Origin: Dictyostelium discoideum
Lineage: Eukaryota
Direction: 5' to 3'
Assembly: GCA_000004695.1 (NCBI GenBank)
Contig: CM000154.2
Span: forward strand, 1,120,001 to 1,184,000
Length of the DNA stretch: 64,000 bases
In this document: positions 36,915 through 41,975 of the stretch, in pieces
Layout: each line of letters begins with the position of its first letter
Numbering within the stretch: position 1 is the stretch's first letter
Made by a program: the position numbers and the translations under genes
The notes under the pieces: generated by a model
Database searches by the model: none
Told to the model about the DNA's origin: nothing
What the model saw: the letters and a program-made list of their open reading frames with translations, nothing else

Positions 36915-37472
36915 TTAAATTATTAATTCTAATAATGGATTTTCATTATAATGTTTAATTACAATATTATCAAAAGTATTATTTGAAAGTGTTAAAGTTT
37001 TTAAAGAATTTAATTTTATAAATTGTTTAATGGTTTCTTCATTTAGAGTGATTCTATTATTTTGAATATTTAAATGAATAATATTTGTATTATATTTTAC
37101 AAGTTGATATAATGATTCAAATTGATCACTGTTGACCAATGATCCATTGGTTAGTGATAATGATCTTATTGATTTATTATTAATTAGAGAGTCAAAGAAT
37201 TTTGGTATAAATTGTAGAAAATAAAAACCTGATAATGATAAAGATGTAATGGTTTCATTGTATTTGAAAACTGATGAAAAGAATTCCACTACAAAAATTG
37301 GTAACTTGAAATTTAAAGAACCTCTTGTCAAGTGATTATTTATTAATTTATTTGTTTTATCCTTTGTAAATTTAATTAATAATGTTTTAATTGATTTATT
37401 ATTTATAATTGAATCTTTTAATTTTTCAATAATCATTGAAAATTCTTCAATTAATATATTATTTTGAATTAA

Positions 37473-37504
<32 letters not shown>

Positions 37505-37898
37505 CGTTATTATTATCGTTATTATTATCGTTTTTACTATTGTCAATGAATGAAAACAATTCAGAGAATGATTCACATTCTAAATGATTTAAATTATTTA
37601 ATTTAAACGCTTCAATTAATGCTAATAAACAACAATTACCTGGTCGTATTAATTTTTTAGTTGAATTTAATTTTAAAGGTGCAGAACATATACTATTGAA
37701 AATTAAATATTCTGGATCCAATAAATAAATTAACTCCAATAAATCATTTGATATATTAATATGATCCAGTAAAGTTGTTATTGAAAGTTTATAAACATTT
37801 AAATTTTTATAAACAATCAAATGACTATTATATTCACTATCATTAACATTATCATTACTATTAGTATTGTTGTTGTTAATACTGTTTTTATCAATATT

Positions 37899-37954
<56 letters not shown>

Positions 37955-38618
37955 GCTGTTCAGTATTAAATGAAAATGAACCACTTGCATATAAATTTAA
38001 AAGTAATTTTATATTTGTTTGTTGATTAGATATTAATTTAAATTTTGATAAAATTGAAAATAGATCAGGTTCTACTAGTACATTTATATTTTCACTAATA
38101 TATTCTAAATGTTTGAATAATTTTAATAAATAAATTGAATTATTTGGTGATGATAATAATTTCATAACATTTCTATTTATGTTACAAAAATCCAACATCG
38201 TTATATTATTGAAATCGACTAAACTATAATTTGGAGGTGACGTTGATATCATTGATTCATTTAAAATATAATTCTCATCAATTTCATCATCACTATATCC
38301 TTGGTCATTTATTCTCTTATTATTATTATTATTTGTTCTTATTATGAAATCATTAATATCAAAATAAATTTCTCTTGTGTAAATTATTGGAGTTGATGGT
38401 TGTTTGAATATGTATTTATAAATTTCTATACAATTTAACTTTGATTTACATATTGAACAATATTTAAACCATTTTTTTGATACCAATGCTAATGAAAGCA
38501 TGTGTTTTTGTCTAATGCCATTATAAAGGTCGTAGCTAAACTCTAAATCAAATTTTGGTTTTAAAAGGATTTGGCTGTGTTTAATTATTTCAAAATATAT
38601 ATAGTTTGGAAATTTCAT
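36915..38618 (-). CDS. Leucine-rich-repeat protein of 567 aa with polyQ and polyN inserts and an F-box-like N-terminus.
   Basis: It is a single long ORF. LRR-like repeats occur in the C-terminal half (…LSLSGF…LINNKSIRSLSLTNGSL…LNSLKTLTLSNNTF…). An F-box-like segment lies near the N-terminus (MLSLALVSKKWFKY). Confidence 0.55.
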
Positions 38619-38955
38619 CTTTTTTTTTTTGAAAAAAAAAAAATAAAGAAAAATAAAAAAATAAATTGAAATAAAAAAAAATAAAAAAAAAAAATTATTA
38701 TTTATTTGTTTTGTTTGTCTATTAAATTATTGAATACAATTTTTTTTTTTTTATGAAAATGAAATAAAAAAAAAAAAAAAAAAAATTATATGGAAAAACC
38801 CTGTTATTTGAAAAATTATTTTCACATTTTATTTTTTTTTTTTTATTTTTTTATTTTTTTAAATTTCCTAAAAAAAAATAATAAAATTTGGATAATATTT
38901 TTATTACTTTTTTTGGTATTTCCTAATGAAAAAAAAAAAAAAGATATTTTCAAAA

Positions 38956-39536
38956 TTATCTTATAACTTTGTAATCACTAATTTTCTTTACCAATGACAA
39001 TATGCTATCAATATTAACTCCTGAGTACCTTTCCAACTCATTACCATTTGAAGAAATAATAAAAGTGGGTGTTGAAGATACTGTTTGACATATTTGAATA
39101 TCCTTTTAAAAATAATGTCCATTAGTATTTATTTTTTTTTACTTAACTTTTTTTTTAAGGAAATTATTATTATTTATTTTTTTTTTTTTTCTTTAAACAT
39201 ATTTACTTTGCACTTTTTAACATCAAAAATTAAAAATAAAACATTTTCATATTCTTTCTCTGATGCTAAAATATCTTTGGTAATAGATCTCACTTAAAAT
39301 AAAAATAAAATTTTTAATATATTTAATAAAATAAAATGAAATAAAATAAAATGAAATAAAATAAAACGAAATAAAATAAAATGTAACAAAATAAAAATGA
39401 AAAAAATAAAAAAAAAACAATAAATAAAAAATAAATACTTACTGTCATCTTTTTCTCCTGTGATAATTAAAAATAAGTTTAAATTATTTTTATATTTTTC
39501 AAATTCTTGGATATTTTTAATTTCTATAATTGCCAT
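38956..39536 (-). CDS. Thioredoxin-fold protein of about 108 aa lacking the CxxC active site. Exons are 39536..39443, 39292..39207 and 39102..38956.
   Basis: Exon 1 reads MAIIEIKNIQEFEKYKNNLNLFLIITGEKDD, followed by GTAAGT (39442-39437). Exon 2 follows TTTTAAG and reads (M)RSITKDILASEKEYENVLFLIFDVKKCK, followed by GTAAAT. Exon 3 follows TTTAAAAG and reads DIQICQTVSSTPTFIISSNGNELERYSGVNIDSILSLVKKISDYKVIR*. The protein aligns with thioredoxin (…PTF…GANKEKLE…), but the WCGPCK loop is replaced by GEKDDM(R). Confidence 0.55.
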
Positions 39537-39898
39537 TTTTTTTTTTTTTTCTTTATTAATTTTGAACAGCTGATATTATAATGTATAAAAAAAAAAAAAA
39601 AATAAAATAAAATAAAAATAATGAAATTCACCACAACAATTAAAAAAAAAAAAAAAATAAAAAAAAAATAAAAATAAAATTTAATTAAAATTTAATTTTC
39701 AACTAAAAAGGGAATTTTCCTTTACCCACAGATATATATAAATATCCAAACCATTGTTCAATTTTTTTTTTATATATCTTTTTTATTTTTTTTTTTACTT
39801 TTATTTTTTATTTTTTTTTTTTAAAATTATCATATTATTACTTATTTAACTAATGTGATTTACACAAAAATTGAAAAGGGGTATTTATTATTATTTAC

Positions 39899-39962
<64 letters not shown>
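39899..39962 (+). repeat. (TTA)n microsatellite of about 21 units in the 3' UTR region just downstream of the gamma-CA stop codon.
   Basis: This is a direct read. Confidence 0.85.
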
Positions 39963-39974
39963 GTTATTTATTAT

Positions 39975-40987
39975 TTATAATGGATTATTTAAGATGTGAT
40001 CGCTTCTAGTTCTATTTTTAACGTATTTTTGTAATAAATCGTTATTTAATTCCTTGGCAGATTTTGAGGTTTGTTTTTCGTGTTGTTCAGAGAGGTTAAT
40101 GTTTTGTTCGATAATTTTTTCGAGTTGTGATTCGTCGTCTTTAGTGACTTGACGAATGAATTTTGCTGGAGAACCACCCCAATATTCACCAGATTTGATG
40201 GTTTTACCAGCTGTAAGTAATGAACCTGCTTCTAAAAATCCATTTTTCTCAACAACGCTACCATCACATAAAGTACTACCAGTACCAATAAAGCTTTCAC
40301 CAAGAATGGTTGCTGCGTGAACAATTGAACCTGGTCCAATATATACTTTATCACCAATTTGAGTTGGTTTTGGACCTAATGGGCCATTTGATGAACAATG
40401 AACAACTGTACGATCTGAAACAACTGTTTTATCACCAATATGAATTGAATTAACATCACCTAAATTATAAAATAAAATAAAATAAAATTATAAAAAAAAA
40501 AAAATCAATATCCTGTAATTTTTTTTTTTTTTTTTTTTTTTTATTTCTCTAAACTTTATTTTTATTTTTATTTTTTTTCAAATAATTATAATTACCTCTT
40601 AAAACTGCATTATACCAGATGCTTGATTCTTTACCAATAACAACATCACCAATAATTGATGCATTTGGTGCAATGAATGATTTTTGACCAACAATTGGAG
40701 CATTATCACCAAAAGCTGTTAATCTAGTATGTCTGTTTACTGTTTTATTATTTTTTTTTTTTGAATTAGTATTTTAAAATTAAAAATGAATGAATTAATG
40801 CAGTGATCATTAATTTTGTGATACGTAAAACTACCACACTCGCCAAAAAAAAAAAAAAGATTTAAAAAAACTTACATTTTTCAACATAGGCATAATCACC
40901 TTGCATTTTACAACCGGTTCTGTGTAAAATTAAACCAGTATTCTTTACAACTTCACCTAAAATTCCAAATAAACCTTTTTGTGACAT
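39975..40987 (-). CDS. Gamma-class carbonic anhydrase (left-handed beta-helix / hexapeptide family), the mitochondrial complex I-associated gamma-CA type. Exons are 40987..40876, 40739..40596 and 40459..39975.
   Basis: The translation is MSQKGLFGILGEVVKNTGLILHRTGCKMQGDYAYVEK|L|NRHTRLTAFGDNAPIVGQKSFIAPNASIIGDVVIGKESSIWYNAVLR|G|DVNSIHIGDKTVVSDRTVVHCSS…GEYWGGSPAKFIRQVTKDDES…. The donors are GTAAGT (40875-40870) and GTAATT (40595). The acceptors are AAAACAG and AATTTAG, both phase 1. The protein is a near-perfect match to plant and amoebozoan gamma-CA. Confidence 0.85.
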
Positions 40988-41243
40988 TCTTTTTTTTTGT
41001 TGTTGTATATATTTTAAAGAGCCAAATGAAATAAAAAAAAATGAAAAAAAAAAAAAATTGAAAAATTGAAAAATAAAAAAAAAAAAATAAAAAAAAAAAA
41101 AAAAAAATTGGAAAAAAAAAAAATAAAAAAAAAAAAATAATCAAAAAAAAAGAAATAATTGAAATTGTAAAAAAAAAATAATAAAACAAAAAAGTTTTCC
41201 AGGTTTTTAATAAAATTTATATTTAATATTTAATATTTAATAT

Positions 41244-41975
41244 TTATTTAATAATTTGAAAATCACCATGTAATTTAAATATTTCTCTTAAATTATCTTC
41301 AGTTAATTCTGTTGTATAAATTAATTTATTTGAAAGTTCAGATTTATCAATACGATCAATGAAAATTTTCCCAAGAAGATGATCATATTCATGCTGAAAA
41401 CAAGCTGCCAGGATACCATCAGCTTCTATTATTCTCTCTTTACCTGTAATATCTAAAAATGTAATTATACACCTTTTCGAACGTTGTACGTGTGCGAAAA
41501 TATTTGGAACTGATAAACATGATTCAAGCATTGTTATTGTATTATTCTCTGTTGGAATGGTTGGTAATGTGGATTCCTCAGTTTGAAATTTAGTTTTATA
41601 TTGTGATAAATTTAATAATTTTTCAGAACCATGTAAAAACTTTTTAAAATCTGTAATTGTACGTCTTGATGGTTTTGTAACATCTTGATCGATTAATTTA
41701 ATTTTTGGATTGAAAAATGCAGTTAATGGAAAGTTTGGACAATTTAATCCTTCTTGACTTGGAAGTTCTAATAAAAACAATTGTTTATTAACACCAATTT
41801 GAGGTGCTGCAATACCTGTACCAGTACAATCTTTCATTTCTTTATACATTTTCTCTAATAATTTTTCAACTCTTCTCACATCATTTAATTCTTCTTTTGA
41901 CCAAGGTAATGCTTTCTCCCTTAATAATTTATTACCAACTTTAACTATATTTTTTGAAATATTAACAATTTCCAT
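41244..41975 (-). CDS. Peptide deformylase (PDF), organellar type.
   Basis: The translation MEIVNISKNIVKVGNKLLRE… has the three PDF motifs: GTGIAAPQIG, ESCLSVP (the EGCLS motif) and HEYDHLLG. ORF 41244..42134 extends further 5' only through translated poly-A/T, so I took the ATG at 41975 as the start. Confidence 0.8.
   Translation of the reverse strand: MEIVNISKNIVKVGNKLLREKALPWSKEELNDVRRVEKLLEKMYKEMKDCTGTGIAAPQIGVNKQLFLLELPSQEGLNCPNFPLTAFFNPKIKLIDQDVTKPSRRTITDFKKFLHGSEKLLNLSQYKTKFQTEESTLPTIPTENNTITMLESCLSVPNIFAHVQRSKRCIITFLDITGKERIIEADGILAACFQHEYDHLLGKIFIDRIDKSELSNKLIYTTELTEDNLREIFKLHGDFQIIK

What the first reader, a model, noticed from the sequence alone, without database searches (positions are those of the whole stretch)
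38956..39536. Thioredoxin-fold protein whose WCGPC active site is replaced, next to the gamma-carbonic-anhydrase gene
The three exons assemble into a protein of about 108 aa that aligns along its length with classical thioredoxin, including the cis-Pro 'TPTF' region and the C-terminal helix. Where thioredoxin has WCGPCK, this protein reads GEKDDM(R). The whole protein has only one Cys. It could be a redox-inactive thioredoxin-like protein, possibly a chaperone or scaffold. It lies 440 bp from the gamma-CA gene on the same strand.
Basis: partly seen in the sequence, partly recalled or inferred. Interest (0 to 1): 0.5.

Follow-up and report, generated by a model that had tools for sequence, protein, structure and literature searches.

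The report
Redox-dead thioredoxin paralogue of Dictyostelium
This is a real, conserved and developmentally switched-on Dictyostelium gene (DDB_G0288153) for a small thioredoxin-shaped protein that has lost the two catalytic cysteines, so it is an ordinary "dead-enzyme" relative of thioredoxin, and its position beside the gamma-carbonic-anhydrase gene appears to be coincidental.

Summary
The three-exon minus-strand model (39536-39443, 39292-39207, 39102-38956) is correct. It gives a 108-aa protein identical to Dictyostelium discoideum DDB_G0288153 / Q54JC3, listed as "thioredoxin-like protein". It is homologous to cytosolic thioredoxin over its whole length (hhalign 98.9 %, E 3e-17), and the AlphaFold model has the Trx fold (TM about 0.8 to human Trx1). 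The WCGPC site is absent: the loop is two residues shorter, and no CxxC or WC exists in any frame between the flanking genes. One error in the finding: there are two cysteines (C59, C65), not one.

Orthologues occur only in close Dictyostelium relatives (D. citrinum/dimigraforme 88 %, D. purpureum 29 %). All have identical intron positions and none has CxxC. dN/dS is 0.21. Published RNA-seq shows about 100-fold induction at aggregation. It is therefore neither a pseudogene nor a mis-splice.

The gamma-CA adjacency (438 bp) is real. It is not conserved in D. purpureum, and the two genes are not co-expressed.

Most likely this is a non-catalytic Trx-fold binding protein used in multicellular development. 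That role is inferred, not shown. It is a new member of a known kind, of low to moderate interest.

The parts
39443..39536 (-). Exon 1 (ATG at 39536-39534). Encodes residues 1-31 plus the first base of codon 32: strand beta1, helix alpha1, strand beta2 and the start of the degenerate active-site loop (..LFLIITGEKDD).
   Evidence: Identical to the annotated DDB_G0288153 product. Same exon length (94 nt) in D. dimigraforme.
39293..39442 (-). Intron 1 (phase 1, GTAAGT...AG, 150 nt, 7 % GC). It interrupts the former active-site loop and contains a 15-nt tandem repeat (39325-39411).
   Evidence: Same position and phase in D. dimigraforme (72 nt) and D. purpureum (66 nt), but length and sequence are not conserved.
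39207..39292 (-). Exon 2 (86 nt). Encodes residues 32-60: M32-R33 (end of the active-site remnant), helix alpha2, strand beta3 and Cys59.
   Evidence: The exon is 86 nt in all three species examined.
39103..39206 (-). Intron 2 (phase 0, GTAAAT...AG, 104 nt).
   Evidence: Position conserved after the Cys-Lys codons in D. dimigraforme and D. purpureum.
38956..39102 (-). Exon 3 with the TAA stop. Encodes residues 61-108: helix alpha3 with Cys65, the TPTF cis-Pro motif (39061-39072), the beta4-beta5 hairpin, the SG(V)N loop and helix alpha4.
   Evidence: This is the part most similar to canonical Trx.
39443..39458 (-). Codons for G27-E28-K29-D30-D31 and the first base of M32. Together with 39288-39292 (TG of M32, then R33) they occupy the place of (T)WCGPCK. 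No cysteine is present.
   Evidence: hhalign register EKDDMR <-> WCGPCK. MAFFT alignments. No CxxC or WC in any frame.
39210..39212 (-). Cys59 codon. It is equivalent to human Trx1 Cys62 and is conserved in all three orthologue groups.
   Evidence: The equivalence to human Cys62 is my own alignment by counting back from the PTF motif.
39088..39090 (-). Cys65 codon. It lies one residue before the position of human Trx1 Cys69. It is conserved in D. dimigraforme/citrinum but is Ile in D. purpureum.

Best explanation
DDB_G0288153 is a lineage-restricted paralogue of cytosolic (Trx1/h-type) thioredoxin. I found it only in D. discoideum, D. citrinum/dimigraforme and D. purpureum. It keeps the beta-alpha-beta-alpha-beta-alpha-beta-beta-alpha thioredoxin fold. 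It has lost the whole catalytic apparatus: Trp-Cys-Gly-Pro-Cys, the buried Asp, and in D. purpureum also the cis-Pro and the Gly of the substrate groove. It therefore cannot carry out canonical dithiol-disulfide exchange.

It is nevertheless kept by purifying selection. It is silent in growing cells and is switched on about 100-fold when cells aggregate, and it is listed as rising again at culmination.

The most likely mode of action is non-catalytic: a small cytosolic Trx-fold module that binds one or more partner proteins as an adaptor, scaffold or holdase during multicellular development.

Shown here: gene structure, homology, predicted fold, loss of the motif, conservation and expression.
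Inferred: absence of redox activity, cytosolic location (no N-terminal extension beyond strand beta1) and the binding role.
For: - Gene model and identity to the annotated protein.
- Homology to Trx: (98.9 %, E 2.9e-17, 103 columns).
- Fold: AF2 pLDDT 88 / pTM 0.80 with the order E-H-E-H-E-H-E-E-H. The D. purpureum orthologue gives pLDDT 91 / pTM 0.83. The best PDB neighbours of both are human and other Trx1, TM 0.78-0.83.
- Loss of catalytic residues in all orthologues. No hidden CxxC exon.
- Selection: dN/dS 0.21 (dS 0.39). Exon lengths are identical (94/86/147 nt) while intron lengths differ (150/104 vs 72/141 nt) and intron sequence has diverged. Identity of 88 % to D. dimigraforme matches the neighbouring genes at 83-86 %.
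- D. purpureum homologue has the same two intron positions and phases.
- Expression: Table S1 of PMC11367525 gives about 0.6 rpm at 0 h and 13-35 rpm at 8-10 h, log2FC 6.9 and 6.6, adjusted p 3e-89. Additional file 7 of PMC4403905 lists the gene in UP_Hr18_rapid and UP_Hr20_gradual of filter development, by my reading of the column order.
Against: - No direct evidence for any binding partner or phenotype. No paper in the searchable library mentions the gene.
- The protein was not seen in the stored, truncated part of the proteomics tables, so translation is unproven.
- mRNA level is modest, tens of rpm.
- Both AF2 models were built with alignments dominated by canonical thioredoxins, which biases them towards the Trx fold.
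- D. discoideum and D. purpureum share only 29 % identity. The classical substrate-groove loops differ between them, so any conserved binding surface is not the classical one. The only striking family-specific conserved motif is YKNNL (residues 15-19, alpha1-beta2 loop).
- Cys59 is conserved, so a thiol-based role is not excluded.
Confidence: 0.6

Rival explanations
1. The protein is still redox-active through a non-canonical thiol. This could be the Cys59/Cys65 pair in and before helix alpha3, which is the counterpart of the regulatory Cys62/Cys69 dithiol of human Trx1, or Cys59 alone. It would act as a redox sensor or a trans-nitrosylation or glutathionylation site during development.
For: Two cysteines exist, not one. 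Cys59 aligns with human Cys62 and is invariant in the three orthologue groups. Cys65 lies one residue from the human Cys69 position. That human Trx1 forms a second Cys62-Cys69 disulfide is established knowledge and was not tested here.
Against: Cys65 is Ile in D. purpureum, so the pair is not a family feature. A Cys at the 59 position is common in canonical Trx1 as an ancestral residue, so its conservation needs no new function. No geometry or reactivity could be assessed.
Confidence: 0.12
2. The locus is a decaying duplicate, a transcribed pseudogene or a gene under relaxed constraint with no function.
For: All catalytic residues are lost. The Pfam score is borderline (23.8 vs 23.5) and falls below threshold or is absent in the orthologues. 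Expression is low in absolute terms. Divergence from D. purpureum is very high, 29 % identity.
Against: The 108-aa ORF is intact in several D. discoideum assemblies and in D. cf. discoideum, D. citrinum and D. dimigraforme, and a 105-aa ORF is intact in D. purpureum. dN/dS is 0.21 with dS 0.39. Exon lengths and splice sites are conserved while introns drift. It evolves no faster than its neighbours. Induction is tightly regulated, about 100-fold.
Confidence: 0.08
3. The gene model is wrong and the real transcript carries a CxxC, through an alternative exon 1/2 junction or a micro-exon.
For: Intron 1 falls exactly in the active-site loop. No transcript-level splice evidence could be inspected here.
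Against: No CxxC or WC occurs in any of the three minus-strand frames across 38619-39990. Intron 1 is 7 % GC, has stops in all three frames and otherwise encodes only F/I/L/Y-rich low-complexity sequence. The same junction is used in the independently annotated D. dimigraforme and D. purpureum genes, whose proteins also lack CxxC. The alignment to Trx is continuous across the junction apart from a two-residue shortening.
Confidence: 0.02
4. It is functionally coupled to the adjacent gamma-carbonic anhydrase and mitochondrial complex I, for example as a Trx-fold accessory subunit like NDUFA2/B8.
For: It lies 438 bp downstream on the same strand. The arrangement PDF - gamma-CA - Trx-like is conserved in D. 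dimigraforme. Trx-fold complex I subunits without CxxC do exist (NDUFA2; established knowledge).
Against: In D. purpureum the homologue sits between a DnaJ_C fragment and an ATG14/APG6 gene, not next to a gamma-CA. There is no Pfam match to L51_S25_CI-B8 or any family other than PF00085, even at E<=10. There is no N-terminal presequence, because strand beta1 starts at residue 3. The gamma-CA is constitutively expressed at about 200-900 rpm and was detected as protein, whereas this gene is off in growth.
Confidence: 0.03

Closest known systems
Classical cytosolic thioredoxin (Trx1 / h-type; Pfam PF00085), e.g. human TXN or Litopenaeus vannamei Trx (PDB 3ZZX/5G31)
   Same: Same size (about 105-108 aa), same predicted fold and secondary-structure order. 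Clear sequence homology, strongest in beta3-alpha3-beta4-beta5-alpha4: 'VLFL.FDV..C.DI......PTF....NG.....SG.N...L..L'. The cis-Pro TPTF motif is kept in D. discoideum, and Cys59 equals human Cys62.
   Different: No WCGPC, and the loop is two residues shorter. The buried Asp, Trp31 and Pro40 equivalents are lost. It scores 19.9 bits against the TIGR01068 cut-off of 96.8. It cannot be a dithiol reductase.
N-terminal Trx-like domain of Grx3/PICOT (GLRX3/TXNL2; PDB 2DIY, 3D6I)
   Same: A Trx1-derived domain with a degenerate active site that works non-catalytically. These are among the best structural matches (TMq 0.84 and 0.75-0.83).
   Different: Those are domains fused to CGFS monothiol glutaredoxin modules and retain one Cys in the motif. 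This protein is a free-standing single domain with no Cys in the loop.
Dim1 / TXNL4A (U5 snRNP 15 kDa; Pfam PF02966)
   Same: A small stand-alone Trx-fold protein without a functional CxxC that acts purely by protein-protein binding.
   Different: No detectable sequence relationship beyond the fold: no PF02966 hit at E<=10. Dim1 is about 142 aa, universally conserved in eukaryotes and constitutive. This gene is restricted to a few Dictyostelium species and is developmentally induced.
Multi-repeat CxxC-less Trx proteins found in the exhaustive search (P0007, P0012, P0022; unnamed, from Logan read assemblies)
   Same: These are among the top-scoring non-orthologous hits (second, seventh and seventeenth in the list). 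Each repeat is Trx1-like, and most have a decayed motif such as 'SWCEQN', 'SPYELN' or 'SDWCHSHN'.
   Different: They are tandem arrays of 3-5 domains from unknown organisms. Most repeats keep one Cys, though at least one repeat in P0012 and in P0022 still has a C-x-x-C. There is no evidence of orthology.

Membership tests
Thioredoxin (functional thiol-disulfide oxidoreductase; PF00085 / TIGR01068) | Thioredoxin fold (beta-alpha-beta-alpha-beta-alpha-beta-beta-alpha) | tested here: met
   AF2 model pLDDT 88, pTM 0.80, with the elements in canonical order. Foldseek TM 0.78-0.80 to human, insect and yeast Trx. The D. purpureum orthologue gives the same result. Caveat: the alignment used was dominated by canonical Trx.
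Thioredoxin (functional thiol-disulfide oxidoreductase; PF00085 / TIGR01068) | Significant sequence match to the family profile | tested here: inconclusive
   Pfam gives 23.8 bits against a gathering score of 23.5, C-terminal half only. D. dimigraforme scores 22.6 (below threshold) and D. purpureum has no hit. TIGR01068 gives 19.9 bits against a cut-off of 96.8. Homology itself is secure: hhalign 98.9 %, E 2.9e-17.
Thioredoxin (functional thiol-disulfide oxidoreductase; PF00085 / TIGR01068) | Active-site motif Trp-Cys-Gly-Pro-Cys (CxxC) at the N-terminus of helix alpha2 | tested here: not met
   The loop reads GEKDDMR (D. discoideum), SEKDDMR (D. dimigraforme) and ENSEQYN (D. purpureum). No Cys is present and the loop is two residues shorter. 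No CxxC is encoded anywhere in the locus.
Thioredoxin (functional thiol-disulfide oxidoreductase; PF00085 / TIGR01068) | Conserved cis-proline loop (xPT) facing the active site, and the buried Asp (E. coli Asp26) | tested here: inconclusive
   Pro72 in TPTF is kept in D. discoideum and D. dimigraforme. In D. purpureum the column holds Leu (KPLTF). The Asp column holds Gly/Ser/Glu by MAFFT or Ile by hhalign.
Thioredoxin (functional thiol-disulfide oxidoreductase; PF00085 / TIGR01068) | Reduction by thioredoxin reductase; disulfide reductase activity | not testable with these tools
   Needs recombinant protein and an insulin or DTNB assay.
Dim1 / TXNL4 (PF02966) | Match to the DIM1 profile; about 142 aa with the C-terminal extension | tested here: not met
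   A Pfam scan at E<=10 returns only PF00085. The protein is 108 aa.
Grx3/PICOT-type Trx-like domain | Trx-like domain fused to one or more CGFS monothiol glutaredoxin domains | tested here: not met
   Single-domain 108-aa ORF ending at TAA 38956-38958. There is structural similarity only.
NDUFA2/B8 - MRPL43 - MRPS25 Trx-fold family (PF05047) | Match to the L51_S25_CI-B8 profile; mitochondrial location | tested here: not met
   No hit at E<=10. No presequence. The adjacency to the complex I gamma-CA is not conserved in D. purpureum.
PDI non-catalytic b/b' domains (PF13848 and relatives) | Part of a multidomain, signal-peptide-bearing ER protein; match to the Thioredoxin_6 profile | tested here: not met
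   No such Pfam hit. The protein starts directly with strand beta1 and is a single domain.

The most novel reading that the evidence does not exclude
A Dictyostelium-specific 'dead' thioredoxin, switched on at aggregation, might act as a regulatory decoy or redox switch. It could occupy partners of the active thioredoxins without reducing them, or use the Cys59/Cys65 pair (the counterpart of human Trx1 Cys62/Cys69). Either way it would tune redox signalling at the transition from unicellular to multicellular life.
Probability: 0.1. Interest if true: 0.45.

Novelty: new member of a known kind. Interest (0 to 1): 0.22.

Why it matters
Catalytically dead relatives of enzymes are common, and some are important regulators. 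This one is a clean, small example. It is a free-standing Trx1-derived protein with every catalytic determinant removed, kept under purifying selection, restricted to a few social amoebae and expressed only once cells become multicellular. If a knockout showed a developmental phenotype, it would offer a tractable model for how a redox enzyme fold is re-used for binding, and for how young, fast-evolving "social" genes acquire function. As it stands it is an annotated but unstudied gene. The finding mainly refines its annotation: no CxxC, two non-active-site cysteines, a developmental expression pattern and no real link to the neighbouring gamma-CA.

Tried and rejected
1. Hidden CxxC micro-exon or alternative junction. 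I scanned all three minus-strand frames of 38900-39620 and then 38619-39990 and found none.
2. Tandem Trx paralogues in the window. tblastn of this protein, its D. purpureum orthologue and a canonical Trx against the 64 kb found only this locus.
3. More distant orthologues. The word-indexed search with the protein, and then with a three-orthologue profile, found only three clusters. The exhaustive phmmer over 1.84 billion representatives gave only 32 hits at E<=1e-3. The full-length single-domain matches I read all carry the WCGPC-type motif (one 96-aa hit and one 67-aa fragment lack that region); the rest are multi-domain proteins, most with canonical motifs and three with largely decayed ones. 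Group 1-3 dictyostelid genomes could not be searched at DNA level with the tools.
4. Link to gamma-CA or complex I. Rejected on synteny and expression.
5. Other Trx-fold families (Dim1, phosducin, PDI-b, B8). No Pfam hits at E<=10.
6. Foldseek against AFDB50. The library was not available.
7. Literature. There was no main-text mention of DDB_G0288153, and two thioredoxin/Dictyostelium searches gave nothing specific. Supplements of PMC9118663 and PMC2864575 are not held, and PMC6650454 has no entry.

Full report
**What is in the sequence**

On the minus strand, the three segments 39536-39443, 39292-39207 and 39102-38956 join through canonical, extremely AT-rich introns. These are GTAAGT..AG (150 nt, 7 % GC) and GTAAAT..AG (104 nt, 12 % GC). 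The result is a 327-nt ORF encoding 108 aa:

MAIIEIKNIQEFEKYKNNLNLFLIITGEKDDMRSITKDILASEKEYENVLFLIFDVKKCKDIQICQTVSSTPTFIISSNGNELERYSGVNIDSILSLVKKISDYKVIR

The window is 22.7 % GC and is Dictyostelium discoideum. The protein is 100 % identical to XP_636870 / EAL63364 / DDB_G0288153 / UniProt Q54JC3. NCBI calls it "hypothetical protein" and UniRef calls it "Thioredoxin domain-containing protein". The dictyBase-derived gene-product column of a published table calls it "thioredoxin-like protein".

One detail is wrong. The protein has two cysteines (C59, C65), not one.

**Is it a thioredoxin relative?**

Yes.
- phmmer against PDB sequences gives E 3.8e-9 to shrimp thioredoxin, followed by dozens of Trx1/h-type thioredoxins.
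- Pfam PF00085 just passes, at 23.8 bits against a gathering score of 23.5, over residues 43-99 only.
- A profile of the three orthologue groups against a profile of 50 canonical thioredoxins gives 98.9 % probability, E 2.9e-17, over 103 columns. The N-terminal half is therefore homologous too.
- AlphaFold2 gives pLDDT 88 / pTM 0.80 with the canonical element order E3-6, H9-15, E21-26, H29-40, E50-55, H63-67, E73-78, E81-87, H91-102.
- Foldseek places the model next to human, insect, yeast and Plasmodium thioredoxins at TM 0.78-0.80.
- Caveat: the alignment given to AlphaFold was mostly canonical thioredoxins.

**The active site**

Every alignment agrees that no cysteine is available where WCGPC should be. 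They also agree that the beta2-alpha2 connection is a net two residues shorter.

The exact register is ambiguous:
- hhalign pairs E28-K29-D30-D31-M32-R33 with W-C-G-P-C-K and places a two-column gap just before.
- An 8-sequence MAFFT alignment places the gap on W-C.
- A 53-sequence MAFFT alignment gaps out C-G-P-C altogether.

Other columns that are invariant or nearly so in the 50 canonical sequences are also lost. These include the aromatic and Ala residues just before the motif, Trp31, the buried Asp and Pro40. The DVD motif after beta3 is DVK, DVN and RRD in the three groups. Pro72 of TPTF (the cis-Pro) and Gly88 of the SGxN loop survive in D. discoideum. In D. purpureum they are replaced by Leu (KPLTF) and Ala.

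Intron 1 sits inside the remnant of the active-site loop, so I looked for a hidden exon. No CxxC or WC is encoded in any minus-strand frame anywhere between the two flanking genes, 38619-39990. Intron 1 has stops in all three frames and otherwise reads as F/I/L/Y-rich low-complexity sequence.

**Is it a live gene?**

*Conservation.* Exact or near-exact copies occur in several D. discoideum assemblies and in D. cf. discoideum. An 88 %-identical 108-aa orthologue occurs in D. dimigraforme and D. citrinum.
- The D. dimigraforme locus keeps the same neighbours: peptide deformylase, gamma-CA, this gene, then a 567/589-aa protein.
- Its exon lengths are the same (94/86/147 nt) and the GT/AG sites are at the same positions. 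The introns differ in length (72 and 141 nt) and in sequence.
- Nei-Gojobori counting gives dN 0.081 and dS 0.39, so dN/dS is 0.21.
- The 88 % identity is in line with the neighbouring genes (PDF 84 %, downstream gene 83-86 %). The gene is not evolving unusually fast within this species pair.

*The D. purpureum homologue.* The exhaustive HMMER search of 1.84 billion representatives found one more family member, D. purpureum DICPUDRAFT_93266 (105 aa, 29 % identity), again without CxxC. Its gene has two introns at exactly the same positions and phases, with exons of 91/86/141 nt. This supports common descent from an already 'dead' ancestor. It has no Pfam hit at all, yet it is predicted to have the same fold (pLDDT 91, TM 0.81-0.83 to human Trx1).

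*Limits of the family.* A profile search with the three groups found nothing further. As far as the databases reach, the family is confined to a few Dictyostelium species.

*Expression.*
- In the paired transcriptome/proteome study of early development (PMC11367525, Table S1), the gene is at about 0.6 rpm in growing cells. It is 0.2-0.5 rpm at 2 h, about 1.1-1.6 at 4 h and 1.3-3.7 at 6 h.
- It then jumps to 14-35 rpm at 8 h and 13-31 rpm at 10 h. The log2 fold changes are 6.9 and 6.6, adjusted p 3e-89. These times are the streaming-to-mound stages in that study.
- In the 24-h filter-development series of PMC4403905 it is listed among genes going up at 18 h ("rapid") and 20 h ("gradual"). This is my reading of the column order in additional file 7.
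- It was not found in the stored, truncated parts of the proteomics tables, so protein-level evidence is lacking.

**The gamma-CA neighbour**

The upstream gene (39975-40985, minus strand; 438 nt away) is a gamma-carbonic anhydrase of the mitochondrial complex I type.
- It has a Pfam Hexapep match, and its best PDB hit is Arabidopsis gamma-CA2 at E 4e-49.
- It corresponds to DDB_G0288155 / Q54JC2.

The adjacency is real but looks incidental.
- In D. purpureum the homologue lies beside a DnaJ_C fragment and an ATG14/APG6 gene.
- The gamma-CA is expressed at hundreds of rpm throughout and is detected as protein, whereas this gene is off during growth.
- This protein has no presequence and no similarity to the Trx-fold complex I subunit family.

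**Mechanism**

Without the nucleophilic and resolving cysteines, the Trp, the buried Asp and, in one orthologue, the cis-Pro, canonical thiol-disulfide exchange is excluded on established thioredoxin chemistry. The gene is nevertheless under purifying selection and tightly regulated. The best-supported reading is therefore a non-catalytic Trx-fold protein that works by binding.

Residues conserved across all three groups but different from the canonical consensus include N8, Y15-K16-N17-N18-L19, L21, K60, I64, T67, S77, E82, R85 and S93. The YKNNL stretch lies in the alpha1-beta2 loop. In the thioredoxin topology this loop is at the pole opposite the old active site. That placement is an inference from topology and was not measured on coordinates. 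It suggests that any conserved interaction surface is a new one. This part is hypothesis.

Rivals:
- An alternative thiol function through Cys59 (equivalent to human Cys62 and conserved) with or without Cys65 (not conserved in D. purpureum) has a probability of roughly 0.12.
- A functionless decaying duplicate is about 0.08.
- A wrong gene model is about 0.02.
- A complex I link is about 0.03.

**Comparison with known systems and verdict**

The protein works like other redox-inactive Trx-fold proteins, such as Dim1/TXNL4, the Trx-like domain of Grx3/PICOT and the PDI b domains. It belongs to none of those families by sequence or architecture (membership table). By descent it is a thioredoxin-family member that fails the defining functional feature, the CxxC motif.

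The gene is already annotated, and the kind (a dead thioredoxin) is well known. What is added here:
- the explicit loss of the whole catalytic apparatus;
- the corrected cysteine count;
- the restricted phylogenetic range with conserved intron positions;
- evidence of purifying selection;
- aggregation-stage induction;
- the dismissal of the gamma-CA association.

Interest is low to moderate.

Noticed in passing
window 39885-39975: A long (TTA)n microsatellite (about 30 copies, 91 % matches) fills most of the space immediately 3' of the gamma-CA stop codon, inside the 438-nt intergenic region upstream of the Trx-like gene.
   Followed up: no
window 39325-39411 (inside intron 1): A 15-nt tandem repeat (AATAAAATAAAATGA, 5.8 copies) accounts for most of the extra length of intron 1 in D. 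discoideum (150 nt) compared with D. dimigraforme (72 nt).
   Followed up: partly
window 36915-38618 (minus strand): The downstream neighbour is a single-exon 567-aa ORF with long poly-Gln and poly-Asn tracts and no Pfam family on record. It is conserved at 83-86 % identity, as a 589-aa protein, in D. dimigraforme.
   Followed up: no
window 41241-41972 (minus strand): A peptide deformylase gene (243 aa, PF01327) lies upstream of the gamma-CA. The trio PDF - gamma-CA - Trx-like is collinear in D. discoideum and D. dimigraforme.
   Followed up: partly
proteins P0007, P0012, P0022 (exhaustive search, Logan read assemblies, organism unknown): After the D. dimigraforme orthologue, the best E-value in the exhaustive search belongs to a 557-aa protein (P0007). 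It is built of five tandem Trx1-like domains whose motif has decayed to SWCEQN, SPYELN or SDCEQN. P0012 and P0022 are similar 3-domain proteins. This looks like an unannotated family of repeat 'dead' thioredoxins.
   Followed up: no
L003:593-769 (D. purpureum GL871546.1): Next to the D. purpureum homologue, the annotation calls a 58-aa product with only a DnaJ_C match. It may be a gene fragment or an incomplete model near the scaffold end.
   Followed up: no
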